A stretch of 64,000 nt of DNA from NCBI RefSeq assembly GCF_988243305.1, contig NZ_OZ547136.1; one strand, written 5' to 3'. The position numbers and the translations under genes were made by a program. How positions within the stretch are numbered: the stretch's first letter is position 1; every line of letters starts with the position of its first letter. The notes under the pieces were generated by a model. That model worked only from the letters and a program-made list of their open reading frames with translations, made no database searches and had not been told where the DNA came from. This document shows, in pieces, positions 24,950 to 54,418 of the stretch.

Positions 24950-25987
24950 ATGTTTTCCGCATTGCGCCACCGTACCGCTGCCCTGGCGCTCGGCGTATGC
25001 TTTATTCTCCCCGTACACGCCTCGTCACCTAAACCTGGCGATTTTGCTAATACCCAGGCACGACATATTGCTACTTTCTTTCCGGGACGCATGACCGGAA
25101 CTCCTGCAGAAATGTTATCTGCCGATTATATTCGCCAGCAGTTTCAGCAAATGGGTTATCGCAGTGATATTCGGACATTTAATAGTCGGTATATTTATAC
25201 CGCCCGCGATAATCGCAAGAGCTGGCATAACGTGACGGGAAGTACGGTGATTGCCGCTCATGAAGGCAAAGCGCCGCAGCAGATCATCATTATGGCGCAT
25301 CTGGATACTTACGCCCCGCTGAGCGATGCTGACGCCGATGCCAATCTCGGCGGGCTGACGTTACAAGGAATGGATGATAACGCCGCAGGTTTAGGTGTCA
25401 TGCTGGAACTGGCAGAACGCCTGAAAAATACGCCTACCGAGTATGGTATTCGATTTGTGGCGACCAGTGGTGAAGAGGAAGGGAAATTAGGTGCTGAGAA
25501 TTTACTCAAGCGGATGAGTGACACCGAAAAGAAAAATACGCTGCTGGTGATTAATCTCGATAACTTAATTGTTGGCGATAAATTGTATTTCAACAGCGGC
25601 GTAAAAACCCCTGAAGCAGTAAGGAAATTAACGCGCGACAGGGCGCTGGCAATTGCGCGTAGTCATGGAATTGCCGCAACGACCAATCCGGGTTTGAATA
25701 AAAATTATCCGAAGGGTACTGGCTGTTGTAATGACGCCGAAGTTTTCGACAAAGCCGGTATTGCCGTACTTTCGGTAGAAGCAACAAATTGGAATCTTGG
25801 GAATAAGGATGGTTATCAGCAACGCGCAAAAACAGCTGCATTCCCTGCGGGAAATAGCTGGCATGACGTAAGACTGGATAATCAACAACATATTGATAAG
25901 GCACTTCCAGGAAGAATAGAACGTCGCTGCCGTGATGTTATGCGGATAATGCTACCGCTGGTGAAGGAGCTGGCGAAGGCGTCTTGA
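24950..25987 (+). CDS. iap: Alkaline phosphatase isozyme conversion aminopeptidase Iap
   Basis: 345-aa ORF with signal peptide and M28 peptidase-like body; sits immediately before the CRISPR array as in the classic iap locus. Confidence 0.9.
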   Translation: MFSALRHRTAALALGVCFILPVHASSPKPGDFANTQARHIATFFPGRMTGTPAEMLSADYIRQQFQQMGYRSDIRTFNSRYIYTARDNRKSWHNVTGSTVIAAHEGKAPQQIIIMAHLDTYAPLSDADADANLGGLTLQGMDDNAAGLGVMLELAERLKNTPTEYGIRFVATSGEEEGKLGAENLLKRMSDTEKKNTLLVINLDNLIVGDKLYFNSGVKTPEAVRKLTRDRALAIARSHGIAATTNPGLNKNYPKGTGCCNDAEVFDKAGIAVLSVEATNWNLGNKDGYQQRAKTAAFPAGNSWHDVRLDNQQHIDKALPGRIERRCRDVMRIMLPLVKELAKAS

Positions 25988-26007
25988 TGGGTTTGAAAAT
26001 AGGAGCT

Positions 26008-28414
26008 GGGAGTTCTACCGCAGGGGCGGGGAACTCCAAGTGATATCCATCATCGCATCCAGTGCGTCCGGTTTATCCCCGCTGACGCGGGGAACTCCGT
26101 GTGGGAACTACGAGTAGGCCGTTTTCTCTCGGTTTATCCCCGCTGGCGCGGGGAACTCCAATATCCGCGCCGTACCCAGCAAATGCTGACGGTTTATCCC
26201 CGCTGGCGCGGGGAACTCTACCGCATATTCACCAAAGTCCTCTATTTTGTCGGTTTATCCCCGCTGACGCGGGGAACTCGAGCGGACGCTCGACGATAAC
26301 ACCGATTTGCAAGGTTTATCCCCGCTGGCGCGGGGAACTCCAATATCCGCGCCGTACCCAGCAAATGCTGACGGTTTATCCCCGCTGGCGCGGGGAACTC
26401 TACCGCATATTCACCAAAGTCCTCTATTTTGTCGGTTTATCCCCGCTGACGCGGGGAACTCGAGCGGACGCTCGACGATAACACCGATTTGCAAGGTTTA
26501 TCCCCGCTGACGCGGGGAACTCCCGTCAGGCCGCGTCAATCGTTTAGCCCACGGCGGTTTATCCCCGCTGACGCGGGGAACTCACATGGAGTACATCATG
26601 AACAGACCACTGACCCGGTTTATCCCCGCTGACGCGGGGAACTCAGATTTTAGATGAGATGAAGTTGAATAGTTTACGGTTTATCCCCGCTGACGCGGGG
26701 AACTCATAAATCATTCTTTTCTTTCATCACCTACGACCGGTTTATCCCCGCTGACGCGGGAAACTCCTGTAGACGTTCTTTGGTAATGGTTTTCATCACG
26801 GTTTATCCCCGCTGACGCGGGGAACTCAATACTACAAACATCAAATGCGTTATTTACTGCGGTTTATCCCCGCTGACGCGGGGAACTCTAAGCCGTGACG
26901 AGGGTCGCCGCTGGCGTCAACGGTTTATCCCCGCTGACGCGGGGAACTCTTACAGATGTAATAAATCACACATGTAATAGCCGGTTTATCCCCGCTGACG
27001 CGGGGAACTCGATCGGGAGGATTTTAAACGCTGGTCAATGGCCGGTTTATCCCCGCTGACGCGGGGAACTCAATTACCGGGTGTCTAGTGCTCATACGCA
27101 GCCCGGTTTATCCCCGCTGACGCGGGGAACTCAATTACTGGGTGTCTCGTGCTCATATGCAGCCCGGTTTATCCCCGCTGACGCGGGGAACTCTTTCCCC
27201 CATGCGGGAAGCGCGTGCGATTTCGCGGTTTATCCCCGCTGACGCGGGGAACTCTTTTAGGTGTGCTGAGATTATTTGTCGCGGCGCGGTTTATCCCCGC
27301 TGACGCGGGGAACTCTTATCAGCAGCCAGACCAGCATTCGGGGAATACGGTTTATCCCCGCTGACGCGGGGAACTCATGATCAAATCAGTGCCGAGCTGG
27401 TGCAGATGCGGTTTATCCCCGCTGACGCGGGGAACTCAAAACAGGTTTGCCTGTCGCCCTCCGGTCCACCGGTTTATCCCCGCTGACGCGGGGAACTCCA
27501 ATCCGTTTATTACTTTATTTCTGCCGCCTTCGGTTTATCCCCGCTGACGCGGGGAACTCCAACGTTTTGGTAATCAACGGAAGGAGCTTCGCGGTTTATC
27601 CCCGCTGACGCGGGGAACTCAATAAATTCAGGAGCGGTAACGATATATTTAACGGTTTATCCCCGCTGACGCGGGGAACTCGTAAAGGCGTTGCCCTGTT
27701 CCGTCGCTGTTGTCGGTTTATCCCCGCTGACGCGGGGAACTCATCCGTTAATTATTGAGAGAGCTATCAGCTATCGGTTTATCCCCGCTGACGCGGGGAA
27801 CTCACCATCAGTCCTTGAGCCGAGAAAATCGCCGCCGGTTTATCCCCGCTGACGCGGGGAACTCAGCTATATACGGGAGCAAGATTATAATATCTGCGGT
27901 TTATCCCCGCTGACGCGGGGAACTCTTTCGCCCAATCTTGCGCGCTCTGACCTATCTGGGTTTATCCCCGCTGACGCGGGGAACTCGTGGGTGGCTGCCG
28001 TCGCGGCTGGTGCTGCGGCGGTTTATCCCCGCTGACGCGGGGAACTCACTGAGTATTTGCCTCAAGTGATGTACTGGTCCGGTTTATCCCCGCTGACGCG
28101 GGGAACTCAATATCGCCGTCAATGCCAATATTTTTCCGCGCGGTTTATCCCCGCTGACGCGGGGAACTCGTGAAAATAGAGGAAGGGCGCATTATTGGCG
28201 GCGGTTTATCCCCGCTGACGCGGGGAACTCGCGTCAGAAGCGATTGAATCAATAGCGGATCACGGTTTATCCCCGCTGACGCGGGGAACTCGTCCATTTT
28301 CCCCCTGGAGGCTGTAATTCACCGCGGTTTATCCCCGCTGACGCGGGGAACTCTTATTCAGCCAACGCGGCGCGGGGCTTGTTTGCGGTTTATCCCCGCT
28401 GACGCGGGGAACTC
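26008..28414 (-). CRISPR. Type I-E CRISPR array: 39 full 29-bp repeats plus one degenerate terminal repeat, 39 spacers (36 unique)
   Basis: Repeat CGGTTTATCCCCGCTG(G/A)CGCGGGGAACTC on the plus strand at about 61-bp period from 26069 to 28386; degenerate repeat 26008-26036 at the iap end; leader at the cas2 end, so the array is transcribed on the minus strand. Confidence 0.97.
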
Positions 28415-28519
28415 TCTAAAAGTATACATTTGTTCTTAAAGCATTTTTTCCCATAAAAACAACCCACCAACCTTAATGTAACATTTCCTTATTATTAAAG
28501 ATCAGCTAATTCTTTGTTT
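28415..28519 (-). promoter_or_regulatory. CRISPR leader
   Basis: AT-rich about 105-bp segment between the last repeat and the cas2 stop. Confidence 0.7.
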
Positions 28520-29723
<1,204 letters not shown>

Positions 29724-29738
29724 TTTATTACACCTAAA

Positions 29739-30338
29739 TCACAGTGGAGCCAAAGATAGCAAGCCACATCCCATCGATTTAGCTGGCCCAATACCTTGCT
29801 GTACAAGATCTATTAACGCTGGCGCGTCGTTGATGGTGATCACCCCTTCAAAGCAAACCGTTTGAATCTTTCCACTTTTACCATCACCAGAAAAATACTG
29901 TGGCCGTTCCGATATGGGATGCACATCTTCAACGCGCGCCGCATTGCCCAATTTACGTTGCAACCACGCGATTTGTTCTGCTTCTTTTATTAACGGAACC
30001 CGACAGCGTTTAATATTCCCTTTACTATCCAGGCGCTTTTGATTGTCGAGAATAGTTTTGATCGGATTTGCCCGAAGCCGAAAATAGAGTGGAACACCAA
30101 CCTGAAGTTGAAATTCAACCTGTTTAGTTTTAATGACTGTCGCAACAGCAGTTGAAACAGGCATTTGCGCTGACTGCAATAAAACATGACAGCCTTCTGG
30201 TGTGTTTCGCTTCTCAACATGAAAAAGAAAATCACGAGCAGCATCCGGTCTGTTTGGAAATAAATGCCATAATCCCTGGTGAAGTTGGTAAAGATCCCTG
30301 CTCCAGGCCCTGGCAATGATGACTTTACTGAGATACAT
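29739..30338 (-). CDS. casE: crRNA endoribonuclease Cas6e (CasE)
   Basis: 199-aa ORF MYLSKVIIARAWSRDLYQLHQGLWHLFPNRPDAARDFLFHVEKR... Confidence 0.95.
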   Translation of the reverse strand: MYLSKVIIARAWSRDLYQLHQGLWHLFPNRPDAARDFLFHVEKRNTPEGCHVLLQSAQMPVSTAVATVIKTKQVEFQLQVGVPLYFRLRANPIKTILDNQKRLDSKGNIKRCRVPLIKEAEQIAWLQRKLGNAARVEDVHPISERPQYFSGDGKSGKIQTVCFEGVITINDAPALIDLVQQGIGPAKSMGCGLLSLAPL

Positions 30339-30999
30339 CCATACCTCCTTTAATCACATACCATTCTCGGGAAGCAAATTGTCGAGGTAAGGTGATCATC
30401 GGTTCGTCGCGCGCCGTAAATTTTAAATGATGCCCTGTAACTGATTCCTCACTATAAATATCGCCGCCAACGGGCTCATAATTTAATAGCGCCTTCTGAG
30501 GATCCGATGCCTGACATGTCCCCAAAAAAAGCGGGTGTGTTAGTGGGCAACTTCTCCGCCCCAGGTAGGGTGTATACCGAGGCTTTAATACTGCTTTTTC
30601 AAGTTCTGAGATAACCATCGTTGCATGGGGTGTTAACCAGAGAGCGACGGTAAAGGAGGCATCACATAAATATTCGCGCCATGTTTGAATCGTTTCATGA
30701 CTTTTCAAACCACGGTAATCTTCTCGCGCTCCAAGGACTGTATGGTAATCACGCAACCCCGTTACAGACACACGACGATCGTCAAGAATGAGTTCATCGC
30801 AGCGCACTGCAAATTGCACACTCTCTGATAACACCTGTAATGAAGAAGTATCATCACGTTGGATCCCAAGACAAGCCCCGAGTAGCCCTAATAACCCGCT
30901 TCGGGTCGGAAAACTTCCGGTAGGTCGCGTTCCTTCAAAGGTCGGCAGCCCCCAGGCTTGCATTGGCCCAGCAAGCCGCAAGATCAAATAAGATCTCAT
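30325..30999 (-). CDS. casD: Cascade subunit Cas5e (CasD)
   Basis: ORF contains MRSYLILRLAGPMQAWGLPTFEGTRPTG...; start placed at the second ATG. Confidence 0.93.
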   Translation of the reverse strand: MRSYLILRLAGPMQAWGLPTFEGTRPTGSFPTRSGLLGLLGACLGIQRDDTSSLQVLSESVQFAVRCDELILDDRRVSVTGLRDYHTVLGAREDYRGLKSHETIQTWREYLCDASFTVALWLTPHATMVISELEKAVLKPRYTPYLGRRSCPLTHPLFLGTCQASDPQKALLNYEPVGGDIYSEESVTGHHLKFTARDEPMITLPRQFASREWYVIKGGMDVSQ

Positions 31000-31001
31000 G
31001 T

Positions 31002-32093
31002 TCATGCCTCGCCATTATTACGAACCCAGGATTTTAACTGTTCTAAAGTAGGCATTTGTTTAACTTGAGCAGTAATTGGGTCTACATCAGATAAGCTGAA
31101 TTGCGCAGCAGCTCCGTTCAGACCATATCCATTGGCAACGCGATCCCAATATTGATTAAACGCCTGTATAGACGGTTGCAAAAAGCCATCTTTCGCTTTA
31201 ACAGCTTTTTCAAAAGCATTTGCCATAGAAAGTGGCATATCGGAGAAATTAACCATTACCATATCCGCAGGGTTAAAAGCGGCATAAGTACGCTGTTTTG
31301 CTCCAGGGACCTCTGTTGCCAGCATATGAACAACATTGGTTGCAATTTCCAGAGCCTGCTCCCTGGAGGCACCACCTAAATTTTCCTGAAGTTGAGCGAG
31401 GTTAATGTTGGCGTAACGATAAAAAACACCCGATGAAAATTCCTGAGTTCCCAGATGTGCAGAACCTTGTTCCTGTAAATCATCTACAGCGGTGAACCAG
31501 TCAATATCTGAATCAACCTGATGAGTAGTGATCGCATGCGCAATGGACATTGCACCATCAACTTTTCCCAACTCACTCATCATGCCGCTGGTTGCCATTC
31601 TTCCGCTAAGCGCAATATCAACACCCTGCTGTAAATTCACACGTATGGCGGCAATATCTTCCTTAAGAACTTTGAGCAGCTTTTTATCATCCAGATTATC
31701 AGCCTCTGCTTTTGCAACCTGCTCACAGAACCAGGCTATTTCTCCCACAACCCAGGGAGTAACCGCATCGGCAGAAATCTTTTCGGCTTCATCAACTAAT
31801 TTACCGGAGAGCAGCGCTAATGTCTTATCGATGATTTTTTGGTCAAAACGTTCACCAAGTTTTTGCCGAAGAACATCACGTAATTGTGCAAGATGAATTG
31901 TTCTGAGACTGGATTCACCAATATTTTGTGCGTAATAATCACTTTTACGCATCGCACGTTTAAGGCTTTGACTTGAAATTCTTACTCGTCTTTTCCCGCC
32001 GAAAATAGCGTCTTTCTGCATGTTCATATCGTCGCGGTTCAGACATGAAGGGCTGTGAGAGATCAGAACATGAATATTGATAAAGTTAGACAT
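31002..32093 (-). CDS. casC: Cascade backbone subunit Cas7e (CasC)
   Basis: 363-aa [52 protein letters not shown]... Confidence 0.95.
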
Positions 32094-32105
32094 AGAAAGG
32101 TTTCC

Positions 32106-32588
32106 TTACGCATTTTTGTTTGTGGTCAATACAAAATCTTCCAGAAGTTGCTGGCGTTCGCGCTTTCCCCACCAGGTCAACATCCTGGCCATTAATGGCC
32201 AGTCAAGTACGGGTTCGGCGTGAGTAAGTAATCGACGTAACTGGACCATATCGGCTGTTCTGTCAGCCCGAATTAATTGAAAGATACGGCGCTCGTTAAT
32301 TCTTCCACTATTGGCTAAAGCTCTTCCCAACGAGATACCTGTTGTTTGCTCCGGTTTTTTGTCCTGATGTCGGATGACATTCTTTCCTGCGCTCAGGCAA
32401 AACACCATGCGCAAAAGAGCCTGCTGGTGACGTGGGTTTTCCCAACCAAAAGGTTGCACCAACCGATAAAACGCAGGGATATCGCGTAATTCATCAGGTT
32501 CTGAAACACGTCTAATTTGCGCACATGCTCCATTATCCAGTTGTTGCCAGGCTCGATATAAAGCCATTGCATCAATTTCATCAGCCAT
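32106..32588 (-). CDS. casB: Cascade small subunit Cse2 (CasB)
   Basis: 160-aa ORF MADEIDAMALYRAWQQLDNGACAQIRRVSEPDELRDIPAFYRLVQPFG... Confidence 0.95.
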   Translation of the reverse strand: MADEIDAMALYRAWQQLDNGACAQIRRVSEPDELRDIPAFYRLVQPFGWENPRHQQALLRMVFCLSAGKNVIRHQDKKPEQTTGISLGRALANSGRINERRIFQLIRADRTADMVQLRRLLTHAEPVLDWPLMARMLTWWGKRERQQLLEDFVLTTNKNA

Positions 32589-34089
32589 TTGATGGCCCTC
32601 CTTGCGGTTTTAACTCCCGTAAATGTTTGTATAGCGTGGCGCGGGCAAGCGCTAATGTGCTTATTAATTTAGGATGATGTGCATAGGGAGCTACAGATTG
32701 ATTAAATAGCATTTCACACAATTGATGAAGTTTGTCTCGTAAATCAGCTATTACCTCATCAGCCTGGGAAAAATTAATTTTCGCCAATACATCTGGAATT
32801 AATAATTCACTCTGTCGATAGAAATGCCTTTCTGCAGTCTCATGAACAGAGACTCCGGCCCCTTTGAAGTCTTTATTTTTAAACCCTTCTGCAAAGGTAT
32901 ATAACGCCTTGCGTAAGGCTGTTTTATACCCCAAACCAACAGTCACTATTTCGTTTATAACATTGCCGTATTGTTGCCACCCCTGATTAAACATCAGCAC
33001 ATCATGACGTCGTTCAAGAATAGATGCTTGATTATTACGATATCCCCCCATAATCAATTCAAGAGGACTTTGCGGCGCAATATTTCTGAATTGATTCACA
33101 ACCGCCGCCACGCGATTTCCATTTTCATTTTGAATAATCTTATCTACCACAACTCGGCTGATTTGCGTCCATGATGGTGCGGAGGTGGTGAAAGCAAGAA
33201 ATTTTTCCTCAACCTTCCCTTTCTTGACTGTTACCAGACAAGGGGAATGCGGATGGGGCCATAGTCCATTAACTGTAAAGGTAAATTTTTCCTTAAGAAA
33301 ACCGGTATAACGCAAATTGCTTTCCTGTCCACAGCAAGAACATTTACCAATCCCAATGGGATCGCATAGTTCAATATGCGCTGGTTGCCAGAATAAACCA
33401 CGGACAAACCCAATTGACGAAGCTGGCACAGATTCATTGGGCTTGATAGGCTTAATCCAGGTAGGTTGGTTTTCCGTATGTAATTCATTGGGAAATTGTT
33501 TTTGAAGACGAGGTATTGTGAGGACATTGAGTAATACCGTCGAGCGAAGATCGATCCCACATACGAAGGTGGTTATAGGTGTTCCTCCACGTAAACCGCT
33601 TTTAAAGCCACCACCAAAACCAGGTGCCTGATTCGCCTGGTTGAATAACGCAATCGCAGTGCATCCACCACATAATGCTTCACCCTGCCCCGGTTGATTG
33701 ACAAATGCACAATTCGTCGCGCCGCTTACCCCAGCCAACAGTTTTTCCATTGGAGTCACATCATTTGCTTTGACACCTTTGGTCTGCATAAAGGGATGTT
33801 CTGCGTGATTAAGGTAGAACATATCTATCCACGGCGCGATGAGTTGTTGAAACTCATCTTCAGTGAGCGGATTCATTATGCGATGTCGAAATTCAACGTC
33901 ATCTTTTGCCGGGGCGATAATTTGTCCAATGCAAACCAGCAGTGCTAAAGCGGCCAGTTCCATATCGTCACGGGGCAAACTTAATCGCCACTGATCTCTA
34001 CTGCAGTATAGCGATTGCAGATTTAGGATTTGGACTTTCCCCCCGTTTCGCGGGCGTACAGGGATCCAGTTATCAATAAGCAAATTCAT
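32581..34089 (-). CDS. casA: Cascade large subunit Cse1 (CasA)
   Basis: 502-aa ORF MNLLIDNWIPVRPRNGGKVQILNLQSLYCSRDQWRLSLPRDDMELAA... Confidence 0.95.
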   Translation of the reverse strand: MNLLIDNWIPVRPRNGGKVQILNLQSLYCSRDQWRLSLPRDDMELAALALLVCIGQIIAPAKDDVEFRHRIMNPLTEDEFQQLIAPWIDMFYLNHAEHPFMQTKGVKANDVTPMEKLLAGVSGATNCAFVNQPGQGEALCGGCTAIALFNQANQAPGFGGGFKSGLRGGTPITTFVCGIDLRSTVLLNVLTIPRLQKQFPNELHTENQPTWIKPIKPNESVPASSIGFVRGLFWQPAHIELCDPIGIGKCSCCGQESNLRYTGFLKEKFTFTVNGLWPHPHSPCLVTVKKGKVEEKFLAFTTSAPSWTQISRVVVDKIIQNENGNRVAAVVNQFRNIAPQSPLELIMGGYRNNQASILERRHDVLMFNQGWQQYGNVINEIVTVGLGYKTALRKALYTFAEGFKNKDFKGAGVSVHETAERHFYRQSELLIPDVLAKINFSQADEVIADLRDKLHQLCEMLFNQSVAPYAHHPKLISTLALARATLYKHLRELKPQGGPSNG

Positions 34090-34504
34090 TTGTTCTCCTT
34101 CATATGCTCCGACATTTCTCCTGCATTTCTATACGTCGGAACACTTCCGTTATCGGTAAAAACAAAGAAAAAATACGGCGTAATTAATTCAATAATCACA
34201 TTCACTGCAAAAATATATTCATTGGTTTAATACAATTAACCTATGCATATATTAAGATGTGTTGAATTGTTTAAAGACAATAATGCATGCATTTCAAATC
34301 TGCAAGTTATTCGTTTTATTATCAAAGAAATTTTTTAGTTATAATAATTACCATAAATTTTATTACATAAAATATTCATACTGTGAATATAAAATCTCAT
34401 ACCGGGAAATTAAAAGAAGATGTACATTGTGCACCTTCCCTACTTAAGTAGGGATAAACCGTTATTGGTCTTGTTATCGTCATTGATACCAATCATTCCC
34501 GAAG
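34090..34504 (-). promoter_or_regulatory. AT-rich casA-cas3 intergenic region; expected site of the Cascade operon promoter and divergent antisense promoter
   Basis: 415-bp strongly AT-rich non-coding segment directly upstream of casA; in E. coli type I-E loci this region carries the H-NS-repressed, LeuO-activated promoter (established knowledge; exact -10/-35 elements not pinned down here). Confidence 0.45.
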
Positions 34505-37171
34505 TTATTTGGGATTTGCAGGGATGACTCTGGTCATCCCTTCATCCCGAGTGTAGGTAATAACAATATTATTACCCTGCCAGATCCATCCATCCTGATT
34601 CTGTTTCCCTTCCAGCCAAAGTAACCCATCTTCATCTACTACTTCAGAAAAACTACGTTTCCAGGTGAAGGGTACATTGACGCGATTAAGTGCTAACGCC
34701 TCATACTGCTGTTCATGACTTAGGTCCTCGTAGACCTGGCCATCGAGCAGTTGTTTACCTGAAGACGTTTGTACATAAGGCAATAATGGCAGGCTCATTT
34801 CCCCATCCCTCGTTACCGCAAGAATGGTTTCATCGTTATCCTGCAAGCTATATTCTTCAGCCCACTGCAGAACCTTACGAGCCTTGAACCTTTTTTCACA
34901 CTCGGCGCTTTCAAACTTATCCATGCCTTTGATGACCCATTCTGGCTCATCCATTTCCGCATCATCGTAAATGCTATCCAGCCATTGCCGGTAGGCATCA
35001 GGGAAAAATAAGGATGCTCCATTAAGTTCCTCAATATGTTGCTGCGTCCGCCACATGACTCTAACGTTGCTATAAATATGCTCATGTCGTCCGTAACCTT
35101 CGCCATCAGGCAGCAAAATGGTGGCAAGAGGAATCTCAAAACCAACGGGGCGATATTTACGATGATGGCGATGTAAACGGCCCAATCGTTGGAAAAGCAA
35201 ATCTGCGGGACAATGCTGAGTAATTAACCAATCAAAATCAACGTCGAGTGATTGTTCCACGACCTGTGTGGCAACAAGTATTCTTCCAACATTTCGCTCC
35301 CCATTTTTCCCAAAATTACTAATAACACGATTCTCTTTTTCACGGCGATCGTTCAGCGTAAAGCGCGCATGAAACAAATCTATATCTACTTGCGTGTTAT
35401 TTAGTTCCTTTAACCGTTGGTGGCATAGTTGTGCAACATCAACCAAATTGCAGATAAGACAGACTTGTGCACCCGCATTTGCCGCTGCGATCATTCGCTC
35501 TAACATCGTAAGGTCAGGTAACATGTCAGCTAAATAAATAGGTTCTGGCTGAATCGAAAAGCGGGGCGGGAGTTGTTCTGGATGAGCTAACAGATCAAAA
35601 CGTTGCGCACCATTCACACCTCGCCAGTTAATGAGTGGATATGCGGAGTTATTTTCCTCTGGATCTGTATGCAGACCATAAGTATCCAGAAGTTTCTGTT
35701 TTTGTTTCATTGGTAGAGTTGCGGAAAGAAGAATAACACTCCCCCCCACATCAGCCTGAGCCTTGAGCACAGCCTCCAGCAAGCCGTTCATATACGTGTC
35801 GTAAGCATGAACTTCATCAACAATTAAAACACTTCGACCAATTCCCAAACCACGGATAAAGCGGTGTTTAACTGGCAATACCGATATCAACACCTGATCA
35901 ATCGTGCAAACGCCTATTTGCCCAAGAAACACTTTCTTATTGCTTTGTGACAACCATTGGCAACACTGAACCCACGCTTCTTCTTGCCCCTGCTCAGTAA
36001 ATGCGCGTGATTTTATTGATTGAAAAAGGTGGTTAAAACGTGAATTACCATGAGCAAGAATAAGATTTGGGGAGGTAAATAAACGGCTCGCGTTCGCTTC
36101 CATTCTGCTGAGCATTGCATTTGCAGTAGCTTGTGTAGGGAGGGCAAAAATAACACTATCCGCAAGTTGTTGGTCAATAAGTTTCCAGGCATAGGCCAGC
36201 GCTGTTTCGGTTTTACCTGATCCCGTAGGTGCCTCAATCACCGTCAGCCCGGGAGCTGTAGGAAGAGCATCAACCAACACCTGTAATTGTCTTGGTTGAT
36301 AGCCATTGTCCAGTAAGGCATGTACGCCGTCATAACTACGCTTATTTGATACAAGGCCACTCAACTCAAGTACCCGACACGCATCCTGTTGTCTATCCTG
36401 AAAATATTTTCTTAGCGCTTGTATGCCTGAAGGTGCATCTTCTTTGAATAGAAAGGTATCCGTTGTGGTCCAGGAACCTAACCAGTCAGCAAGCGAGCAA
36501 AAACCTGCTAACAATGATGAACAATCAGGTGGTATATCGTTTATAGATAACCCGGCTGGTGTTAAAAATAATGCTTCGAGTACAGATATCCACTCCTCAC
36601 GAGCCTGTTTATCTTGCGCAGCATAAGATGCCAGAGAAGCTGGCATTTCCCAACGCGACTTATCTTGATCCTGGGAATGTAATATAAAACCATGATGTCC
36701 TGTAACGGCCTCTACCCAAGGAAACCAGGACTCATAAGGATGAGGAGCGGCATCAAAAAAACTGAAAAAATCCCCGGGAGATTGCTCTGAAAGTGAATCC
36801 TGGTTAAACCAATACAGACCGGCTGCACCATGATTAAATTTACGGCACATTTGTGTTGATGGACCATTAAGTGATGGCGTTGCAGGATTTAATTTCAGCC
36901 AACTTTCTGCTGATTTATATTGGAATCGTATATCAAACTTTCCGATATCATGAAGGGCAATGAAAAATAACAGCCAGGCTTTCACCTTCTGTTTTGATAG
37001 CATTTCATTTCGGCAAAAAGCATTTTGTAGTACGACTGATTGATCCCACCAGCAATCTGCAACAGCTGCAACATCCAGGCAATGATAAATCAACAGATGA
37101 ATATCATTTCCTTTCGTCAGGCTTTTTGAGGATTTCCCCCAGTAATGACATATATATTTAAAAGGTTCCAT
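34505..37171 (-). CDS. cas3: CRISPR-associated nuclease/helicase Cas3 (type I-E)
   Basis: 888-aa ORF MEPFKYICHYWGKSSKSLTKGNDIHLLIYHCLDVAAV... with HD domain followed by DEAD/DEAH helicase motifs (APTGSGKT, DEVH). Confidence 0.95.
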   Translation of the reverse strand: MEPFKYICHYWGKSSKSLTKGNDIHLLIYHCLDVAAVADCWWDQSVVLQNAFCRNEMLSKQKVKAWLLFFIALHDIGKFDIRFQYKSAESWLKLNPATPSLNGPSTQMCRKFNHGAAGLYWFNQDSLSEQSPGDFFSFFDAAPHPYESWFPWVEAVTGHHGFILHSQDQDKSRWEMPASLASYAAQDKQAREEWISVLEALFLTPAGLSINDIPPDCSSLLAGFCSLADWLGSWTTTDTFLFKEDAPSGIQALRKYFQDRQQDACRVLELSGLVSNKRSYDGVHALLDNGYQPRQLQVLVDALPTAPGLTVIEAPTGSGKTETALAYAWKLIDQQLADSVIFALPTQATANAMLSRMEANASRLFTSPNLILAHGNSRFNHLFQSIKSRAFTEQGQEEAWVQCCQWLSQSNKKVFLGQIGVCTIDQVLISVLPVKHRFIRGLGIGRSVLIVDEVHAYDTYMNGLLEAVLKAQADVGGSVILLSATLPMKQKQKLLDTYGLHTDPEENNSAYPLINWRGVNGAQRFDLLAHPEQLPPRFSIQPEPIYLADMLPDLTMLERMIAAANAGAQVCLICNLVDVAQLCHQRLKELNNTQVDIDLFHARFTLNDRREKENRVISNFGKNGERNVGRILVATQVVEQSLDVDFDWLITQHCPADLLFQRLGRLHRHHRKYRPVGFEIPLATILLPDGEGYGRHEHIYSNVRVMWRTQQHIEELNGASLFFPDAYRQWLDSIYDDAEMDEPEWVIKGMDKFESAECEKRFKARKVLQWAEEYSLQDNDETILAVTRDGEMSLPLLPYVQTSSGKQLLDGQVYEDLSHEQQYEALALNRVNVPFTWKRSFSEVVDEDGLLWLEGKQNQDGWIWQGNNIVITYTRDEGMTRVIPANPK

Positions 37172-53324: not shown

Positions 53325-53370
53325 GTGAGGAAGGCCGGGCGGGAAACTGCCCGGCCTGAACATACCTGAA

Positions 53371-53508
53371 TGGTTATCCCCGCTGACGTGGGGAACATAA
53401 GTTCGACAACTTAAAAAATGATAACAAGTCCGGTTTATCCCCGCTGATGCAGGGAACATAATAAAAACTTTAACTAGTTCGGTTTATCCCTGTTGTTACA
53501 AGGAATAT
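53371..53508 (-). CRISPR. Degenerate CRISPR remnant (three decayed repeat-like units)
   Basis: TGGTTATCCCCGCTGACGTGGGGAACAT / CGGTTTATCCCCGCTGATGCAGGGAACAT / CGGTTTATCCCTGTTGTTACAAGGAATAT separated by 32-nt and about 20-nt spacers. Confidence 0.7.
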
Positions 53509-53962: not shown

Positions 53963-54418
53963 TGGTTTATCCCCGCTGGCGCGGGGAACTCCGTCAGTGT
54001 GCCAGTTGCTACTGTTTCCCATACGGTTTATCCCCGCTGACGCGGGGAACTCATCAGTGATATCCAACATTGCGGAGCTAAACGCGGTTTATCCCCGCTG
54101 GCGCGGGGAACTCTATAAATGTGCCATATACGGCGTTTGTTGCCTCGGTTTATCCCCGCTGGCGCGGGGAACTCCTCCCGGTGATGCGGGTTATGTGGCC
54201 TGCCGCCGGTTTATCCCCGCTGGCGCGGGGAACTCTTCGCCGCGTCAACAATTCGGACCTGTAAATCCGGTTTATCCCCGCTGGCGCGGGGAACTCATCC
54301 GGCGAACGCGCTACAGAGTACAGTTCACCGGTTTATCCCCGCTGGCGCGGGGAACTCGGAAACCGCCCCGGCGGTGGTTAGCTGTTTGCCGGTTTATCCC
54401 CGCTGGCGCGGGGAACTC
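53963..54418 (-). CRISPR. Second type I-E CRISPR array: 8 repeats, 7 spacers
   Basis: Same 29-bp repeat at 61-bp period (53963, 54024, 54085, 54146, 54207, 54268, 54329, 54390); AT-rich leader-like sequence beginning TCTCTAAA at the high-coordinate end, as in array 1. Confidence 0.93.

What the first reader, a model, noticed from the sequence alone, without database searches (positions are those of the whole stretch)
26159..26522. Tandem duplication of a three-spacer block at the old end of the CRISPR array
The unit spacer A (CAATATCCGCGCCGTACCCAGCAAATGCTGA), repeat, spacer B (TACCGCATATTCACCAAAGTCCTCTATTTTGT), repeat, spacer C (GAGCGGACGCTCGACGATAACACCGATTTGCA), repeat occupies 26159-26340 and recurs identically at 26341-26522. 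The only difference is a G/A repeat variant in the final repeat. CRISPR adaptation adds single spacers at the leader end, so an internal block duplication points to repeat-mediated unequal recombination or replication slippage. It also means 3 of the 39 spacers are redundant.
Basis: seen in the sequence. Interest (0 to 1): 0.55.

Follow-up and report, generated by a model that had tools for sequence, protein, structure and literature searches.

The report
Tandem three-spacer duplication in E. coli CRISPR
A block of three spacers at the old end of an Escherichia coli type I-E CRISPR array really is present twice in a row, made by mispairing between two CRISPR repeats; this is a well-documented, ordinary kind of array rearrangement.

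Summary
A 182-nt unit (spacers A, B and C with their repeats) occurs twice in tandem at 26159-26522. The only difference is G at 26328 against A at 26510. The window is the E. coli iap / CRISPR (type I-E) / cas2e locus with all eight cas genes intact. The array is read on the minus strand from an AT-rich leader at 28415-28519, so the block lies at the old end.

E. coli NY1601 is the only one of 5,426 complete genomes carrying these spacers. It has a single copy (Z-A-B-C-D) and shows the parental repeats: C...G before A and A...A after C. The junction repeat in the window (26312-26340) is A...G, a chimera of the two. This places the exchange in 15 nt (26313-26327), as repeat-mediated misalignment predicts. 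The chimeric 17-mer is unique in the window, which argues against an assembly artefact.

Both copies should give identical mature crRNAs, so the only predicted effect is doubled dosage. B and C target one HK97-like prophage family.

Block duplications of spacer-repeat units are already catalogued: about 3% of spacers in CRISPRCasdb and 2-11% in E. coli arrays. The result is ordinary and of low interest.

The parts
26008..26036 (-). Degenerate terminal repeat at the trailer (iap) end of the array
   Evidence: Only its 3' part (GCGGGGAACTC on the + strand) matches the repeat consensus. The same sequence is present in NY1601.
26037..26129 (-). Two oldest spacers (Y at 26037-26068, Z at 26098-26129) with repeat R1 (26069-26097)
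   Evidence: Parsed. Identical in NY1601.
26130..26158 (-). Repeat R2, one parent of the exchange: C at + position 1 and G at + position 17
   Evidence: Same variant at the same place in NY1601 (L001 1781-1809).
26159..26311 (-). Trailer-side copy of the block: spacer A (26159-26189), repeat, spacer B (26219-26250), repeat, spacer C (26280-26311)
26312..26340 (-). Junction repeat R5, chimeric: A at + position 1 (as R8) and G at + position 17 (as R2). The exchange is mapped to 26313-26327.
   Evidence: Alignment A1. The 17-mer AGGTTTATCCCCGCTGG occurs once in the window. This repeat variant (A at + position 1 with G at + position 17) does not occur among the 19 repeats of the NY1601 array.
26341..26493 (-). 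Leader-side copy of the block: spacer A (26341-26371), repeat, spacer B (26401-26432), repeat, spacer C (26462-26493)
   Evidence: The predicted mature crRNAs are identical to those of the other copy.
26494..26522 (-). Repeat R8, the other parent of the exchange: A at + position 1 and A at + position 17
   Evidence: Same variant after spacer C in NY1601 (L001 1963-1991). The odd first base corresponds to T at position -1 of the protospacer of C (PAM ATT) in the JNE151685 prophage.
26523..28414 (-). Rest of the array: 31 further spacers and their repeats up to the leader-proximal repeat (28386-28414)
28415..28519 (-). AT-rich leader between the array and cas2e
   Evidence: 73.3% AT. It lies in the leader-cas2-cas1 stretch 28415-30150, which differs from NY1601 by 1 mismatch in 1736 nt.
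28520..37171 (-). Complete type I-E cas operon: cas2e, cas1e, cas6e, cas5e, cas7e, cse2, cse1, cas3
   Evidence: All eight products exceed the NCBIfam curated cut-offs at full length.
24950..25987 (+). iap (aminopeptidase), the conserved gene flanking the trailer end of this E. coli array
   Evidence: NF007568, 705 bits. Annotated as iap in NY1601.

Best explanation
A genuine tandem duplication of three spacer-repeat units in the iap-proximal type I-E CRISPR array of an E. coli strain. Two CRISPR repeats 182 nt apart mispaired: the repeat after spacer C with the repeat before spacer A. This happened either on the nascent strand during replication (RecA-independent slipped misalignment, which I think more likely for 29-nt repeats so close together) or between sister chromosomes (unequal exchange). 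DNA synthesis or exchange then resumed inside the repeat, within 26313-26327. That left a second A-B-C block and a chimeric junction repeat. Cas1-Cas2 adaptation was not involved. The array is transcribed from the leader on the minus strand and cut by Cas6e. The two copies should give the same three mature crRNAs, so the only predicted consequence is doubled dosage of three old guides, probably neutral. Shown: the duplication, the chimera, the parental configuration in a relative, and intact cas genes. Inferred: the mechanism (slippage or exchange), neutrality, and that the duplication arose in the window's lineage.
For: - Near-perfect copy of 182 nt with a single difference.
- The repeat-variant pattern is copied along with the spacers.
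- NY1601 has one copy, Z-A-B-C-D, with parental repeats C...G and A...A. Its flanks differ from the window by only 6/1719 and 1/1736 nt.
- The junction repeat equals the left part of C-R-D plus the right part of Z-R-A, with 15 shared nt between the markers.
- The chimeric 17-mer is unique in the window.
- All four repeat variants fold into the same 7-bp hairpin. One variant position lies in the loop and the other in the 3' tail.
- The predicted mature crRNAs of the two copies are identical.
- The cas operon is complete.
- Block duplications and the misalignment model are documented in PMC8047081, PMC11472070, PMC4524480 and PMC7708916.
Against: - No reads are available, so the physical existence of both copies in the genome is not directly verified.
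- Only one relative carries these spacers, so polarity rests on parsimony. NY1601 could have regained a single copy by a precise deletion.
- Sequence cannot distinguish slippage from unequal sister-chromatid exchange.
- According to the 2021 review, a role for RecA in array rearrangement has not been tested directly.
Confidence: 0.9

Rival explanations
1. Assembly artefact: the genome has one A-B-C block and the assembler traversed a repeat-induced cycle twice.
For: CRISPR arrays are repeat-rich, and tandem duplications create bifurcations in de Bruijn graphs (PMC7708916). No reads could be examined. The duplication junction (spacer C followed directly by spacer A) was found in none of the 5,426 complete E. 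coli genomes searched, and no second copy of spacer B turned up in the metagenome or species-representative genome scans.
Against: The junction needs a repeat with A at position 1 and G at position 17. That 17-mer is unique in the window, and this repeat variant is not among the repeats of the single-copy relative's array. A single-copy genome therefore offers no k-mer of 18 or more spanning both markers. Assemblers usually collapse tandem duplicates and seldom create them.
Confidence: 0.05
2. Re-acquisition: the same three spacers were taken up a second time by Cas1-Cas2 from the same invader.
For: The same protospacer can be sampled repeatedly. Spacers S17 and S18 of this array are two alleles of one protospacer.
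Against: New spacers enter at the leader end with a copy of the leader-proximal repeat. Here the second block lies at spacers 6-8 of 39 counted from the trailer, directly abutting the first block. It has the same order, 100% identical sequence and the old G-type repeats. Garrett's review notes that an identical series is unlikely to arise by independent uptake.
Confidence: 0.01
3. The duplication is older than the split from NY1601, and NY1601 lost one copy by a precise repeat-mediated deletion. Same mechanism, different timing.
For: Deletions are far more frequent than duplications, and duplicated blocks are expected to be unstable (PMC11472070). A deletion between R2 and R5, or between R5 and R8, would regenerate exactly the NY1601 configuration. 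This follows by inference.
Against: It needs two events instead of one. The two copies have no differences other than the junction marker.
Confidence: 0.2

Closest known systems
Tandem duplications of spacer-repeat blocks in CRISPR arrays (reviewed in Garrett 2021, PMC8047081; quantified in SpacerPlacer 2024, PMC11472070, and Kupczok et al. 2015, PMC4524480)
   Same: A contiguous block of spacer-repeat units is repeated head to tail inside the array, away from the leader, with boundaries inside repeats. It is attributed to repeat misalignment. E. coli arrays are among those where replicated spacers were counted (2.1-11% of unique spacers).
   Different: Nothing different in kind. Here polymorphic repeats let the exchange be mapped to 15 nt, and a relative shows the parental state.
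Tandem DVR duplications in the Mycobacterium tuberculosis direct-repeat locus (PMC7708916)
   Same: Single or multiple adjacent repeat-plus-spacer units are duplicated in tandem. That study saw 16 independent events in 198 samples, five of them multi-unit.
   Different: A different CRISPR type and organism. That locus no longer acquires spacers, whereas this E. coli locus has a complete cas operon.
E. coli K-12-type iap-adjacent type I-E array (called CRISPR-1 in PMC10011333; CRISPR2.1 in Diez-Villasenor's scheme, from my own knowledge)
   Same: Same chromosomal position (iap / array / cas2e), same 29-nt repeat family, 32-nt spacers, and a last repeat base derived from the PAM.
   Different: Most repeats carry T instead of C in the hairpin loop (sense position 13). 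The array is long at 39 spacers, and its spacer content is shared with only one of 5,426 complete genomes.

Membership tests
Type I-E CRISPR-Cas locus of E. coli (iap-adjacent array) | Complete cas3-cse1-cse2-cas7-cas5-cas6e-cas1-cas2 set next to the array | tested here: met
   All eight products exceed the NCBIfam type I-E equivalog cut-offs at full length.
Type I-E CRISPR-Cas locus of E. coli (iap-adjacent array) | 29-nt palindromic repeats regularly spaced by spacers of about 32 nt, an AT-rich leader on the cas2 side and a degenerate terminal repeat | tested here: met
   39 full repeats with 61-nt periodicity and spacers of 31-33 nt. A 7-bp hairpin of -15.1 kcal/mol. Leader 73% AT. RefSeq annotates the homologous stretch in NY1601 as CRISPR.
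Type I-E CRISPR-Cas locus of E. coli (iap-adjacent array) | Spacers match mobile elements, with an AAG-type PAM 5' of the protospacer and the last repeat base taken from PAM position -1 | tested here: met
   The observed PAMs are AGG for B, ATT for C, AAC for S31, AAG for S32 and AAG for S18. The atypical last repeat bases T (before C) and C (before S31) equal the -1 bases of their protospacers. The rule is stated in PMC10011333.
Type I-E CRISPR-Cas locus of E. coli (iap-adjacent array) | Match to a curated Rfam CRISPR direct-repeat family | tested here: not met
   No Rfam family reached its gathering score over 25900-28600. I take this as a limit of the library for 29-nt repeats, not as evidence against a CRISPR.
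Repeat-mediated tandem duplication of spacer-repeat units | Identical series of spacers repeated head to tail, internal to the array | tested here: met
   182-nt unit present twice with 1 difference.
Repeat-mediated tandem duplication of spacer-repeat units | Breakpoints inside repeats, with a junction repeat that is a hybrid of the two parental repeats | tested here: met
   R5 is A...G, while the parents are C...G and A...A in both the window and NY1601.
Repeat-mediated tandem duplication of spacer-repeat units | A related array carries the single-copy state | tested here: met
   NY1601 has Z-A-B-C-D.
Repeat-mediated tandem duplication of spacer-repeat units | Both copies physically present in the genome (read support) | not testable with these tools
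   No reads are available. The only evidence is indirect: the unique chimeric 17-mer.
Repeat-mediated tandem duplication of spacer-repeat units | RecA-independent replication misalignment as opposed to RecA-dependent exchange | not testable with these tools
   Both mechanisms leave the same sequence outcome. The review states that no direct data exist.

The most novel reading that the evidence does not exclude
The duplication was retained by selection, not drift. Spacers B and C, together with the much younger S31 and S32, target one HK97-like prophage family of E. coli. Doubling the dosage of old crRNAs transcribed far from the leader could then raise protection or priming against a recurrent phage. 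That would make internal block duplication a way of boosting old memories.
Probability: 0.04. Interest if true: 0.4.

Novelty: already known. Interest (0 to 1): 0.12.

Why it matters
It matters little beyond bookkeeping. It is a clean natural example in which polymorphic repeats and a single-copy relative pin the exchange point of a CRISPR block duplication to 15 nt inside the repeat. Tools that read spacer order as a timeline, or that count spacers as independent memories, should collapse these three. It is also a useful strain-typing marker. It opens no new question.

Tried and rejected
- Junction search (C-R5-A, 92 nt) against 5,426 complete E. coli genomes. No genome has the junction. NY1601 matched in two pieces spanning 211 nt, which is a single copy.
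- Whole-array search. No closer relative than NY1601.
- Metagenome scan for spacer B. It found a phage-like contig carrying the protospacer, not another array.
- Scan of species-representative genomes for spacer B. Nothing.
- Spacer A target search in IMG/VR (exact match), plasmids, isolated phages and E. coli genomes. No target found.
- All 36 unique spacers against isolated phages. The only hit was a 31/33 match to Stenotrophomonas phages that straddles two concatenated spacers, so I treat it as chance.
- Rfam. No CRISPR-DR hit.
- Consensus promoter scan of the leader. Nothing found. Orientation therefore rests on the leader and cas2 position, the terminal repeat and PAM geometry.
- Re-acquisition by adaptation was rejected because of the block's position and the copied repeat variants.
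- My first reading, that the three S17/S18 differences share one codon phase, was wrong. The positions are 7, 16 and 26.

Full report
**What is in the sequence.** Reading 25800-28700 and parsing with the repeat consensus CGGTTTATCCCCGCTGACGCGGGGAACTC gives 39 full 29-nt repeats from 26069 to 28414. They have 61-nt periodicity. A degenerate terminal repeat lies at 26008-26036. There are 39 spacers, of which 36 are unique. They differ only at 26328 (G) against 26510 (A). The repeat finder reports 26131-26312 and 26313-26494 as 100% identical. Tandem Repeats Finder reports a period of 182 with score 780.

**What the locus is.** The flanks match E. coli. On the left is iap (NF007568, 705 bits). 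On the right, on the minus strand, are cas2e, cas1e, cas6e, cas5e, cas7e, cse2, cse1 and cas3. All are full length and above the NCBIfam cut-offs. Of 5,426 complete E. coli genomes, 5,422 match the region, and those listed carry the iap / CRISPR / cas2e annotation.

**Orientation.**
- The array is followed by a 73% AT leader next to cas2e.
- The terminal repeat at the iap end is degenerate.
- On the minus strand the repeat reads GAGTTCCCCGCG(T/C)CAGCGGGGATAAACC(G). This is the sense form of the E. coli type I-E repeat (from my own knowledge).
- With the minus strand taken as sense, protospacers show AAG-type PAMs on their 5' side.

The consensus promoter scan found nothing in the leader, and Rfam has no matching family. 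I treat neither as informative.

**The pre-duplication state in a relative.** A 92-nt query across the duplication junction (spacer C, repeat, spacer A) found no genome with the junction. One genome, NY1601 (NZ_CM135959.1), matched in two pieces spanning 211 nt. Parsing its array gives terminal repeat, Y, Z, A, B, C, D and onwards, with A-B-C present once. It also shares window spacers S17, S18 and S21. Its flanks differ from the window by 6/1719 and 1/1736 nt.

**The junction repeat is a chimera.** In NY1601 the repeat before A is C...G (+ strand positions 1 and 17), and the repeat after C is A...A. The window has the same two repeats at 26130-26158 and 26494-26522. The junction repeat at 26312-26340 is A...G. 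Alignment A1 shows that the junction equals the left part of C-R-D joined to the right part of Z-R-A. The switch lies in the 15 shared bases GGTTTATCCCCGCTG (26313-26327). That is the footprint expected when the repeat after C pairs with the repeat before A. The internal repeats are copied with their variants, G,G,A then G,G,A at position 17. Leader-end adaptation copies only the first repeat, so it cannot explain this pattern.

**Is it an artefact?** Reads are not available. The 17-mer AGGTTTATCCCCGCTGG, which spans both marker positions, occurs once in the window, and no repeat of the single-copy NY1601 array carries that combination of markers. A genome with one block would contain no k-mer of 18 or more linking A at position 1 with G at position 17, so a normal assembler could not invent the junction. 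Assemblers also tend to collapse tandem copies, not create them (inference). I put the artefact at about 5%.

**Origin of the odd repeat base.** The A at + position 1 of the repeat after C is T29 in the sense orientation, immediately before spacer C. Spacer C has a protospacer with 1 mismatch in an HK97-like prophage of E. coli JNE151685, and its 5' flank is ATT. The -1 base is therefore T. Spacer S31 behaves the same way: it has an exact protospacer with flank AAC, and the repeat at 27958 carries the matching unusual base. This fits the established rule that the last base of an E. coli type I-E repeat comes from the PAM (PMC10011333). It also means this marker travels with spacer C.

**Targets.** Spacer B is exact in a phage-like metagenome contig (OGGR01002768.1, PAM AGG). 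It has 1 mismatch in the JNE151685 prophage. C, S31 and S32 hit the same prophage. So two of the three duplicated spacers and two much younger ones recognise one phage family. No target was found for A.

**Predicted consequences.** All four repeat variants fold into the same 7-bp hairpin at -15.1 kcal/mol. Sense position 13 lies in the loop and position 29 in the 3' tail. I built mature crRNAs as an 8-nt 5' handle, the spacer and a 21-nt 3' handle. The two copies of A, B and C give identical molecules. The only predicted effect is doubled dosage of three old guides. I infer that this is neutral or nearly so.

**Mechanism and timing.** Sequence cannot separate replication slippage from unequal sister-chromatid exchange. 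For 29-nt repeats 182 nt apart, RecA-independent misalignment is the favoured model in the literature, although it has not been tested directly for CRISPR arrays (PMC8047081). NY1601 may retain the ancestral single copy, or it may have regained it by a precise deletion. A duplication in the window's lineage is the more parsimonious reading, but deletions are common (PMC11472070). I give the ancestral-duplication alternative about 20%.

**Comparison with what is known.** Block duplications of spacer-repeat units have been reported since the first comparative array studies, and current tools model them.
- In CRISPRCasdb, 3.3% of 24,090 spacers are duplication candidates, and 86% of those are simple duplications.
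- Replicated spacers make up 2.1-11% of unique spacers in E. coli arrays.
- There were 16 tandem duplication events in 198 M. tuberculosis samples, five of them covering several units.

This case is a clean instance of a known event, not a new kind of thing.

**Verdict.** The duplication is real and correctly interpreted. It is well resolved, with the exchange mapped to 15 nt and the parental state found, and it is ordinary.

Noticed in passing
window 27072-27103 and 27133-27164: Adjacent spacers S17 and S18 differ at only 3 of 32 positions (7, 16, 26). NY1601 carries both. S18 matches a tail-region prophage gene junction in E. coli 40EC exactly, with PAM AAG. Two of the differences fall on third codon positions, and the third is an Ile/Val change. 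The pair therefore looks like two uptakes of one protospacer from allelic phages, not a decayed duplication. E. coli W and other strains carry a third similar spacer in their arrays.
   Followed up: partly
window 26219-26250, 26280-26311, 27926-27957, 27987-28018 versus L005 (NZ_AP027258.1 2191-2224 kb): Four spacers of very different age (B, C, S31, S32) match one HK97-like prophage of E. coli JNE151685 with 0-1 mismatches. This suggests repeated encounters with one phage family.
   Followed up: partly
window 27958-27986 and 26312 / 26494: Repeats whose first + strand base is not C (G at 27958, A at 26312 and 26494) sit next to spacers whose protospacers have non-AAG PAMs (AAC, ATT). The odd base equals the -1 base of the protospacer. 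This is natural confirmation that the last repeat base is PAM-derived.
   Followed up: yes
window 26069-26279: The repeat variant at + position 17 is not monotonic along the old end: R1 is A, R2 and R3 are G, and R4 onwards are A. If every new repeat copies the leader-proximal one, R1 needs a separate mutation or an old recombination event.
   Followed up: no
window 53963-54418 (and degenerate repeats at 53370-53459): A second type I-E array with 8 repeats and 7 spacers, mostly of the G-type repeat, is also read on the minus strand and has its own AT-rich leader. About 500 nt upstream lie two or three decayed repeat copies.
   Followed up: no
window 26738-26766; 26159-26189; 28292-28324: Small irregularities: one repeat with GGGA in place of GGGG in the stem (26738-26766), spacer A of 31 nt, and spacer S37 of 33 nt.
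   Followed up: no
window 26101-26481 (+): A 126-aa ORF runs through the duplicated part of the array. It is an artefact of the repeat periodicity, not a gene.
   Followed up: no
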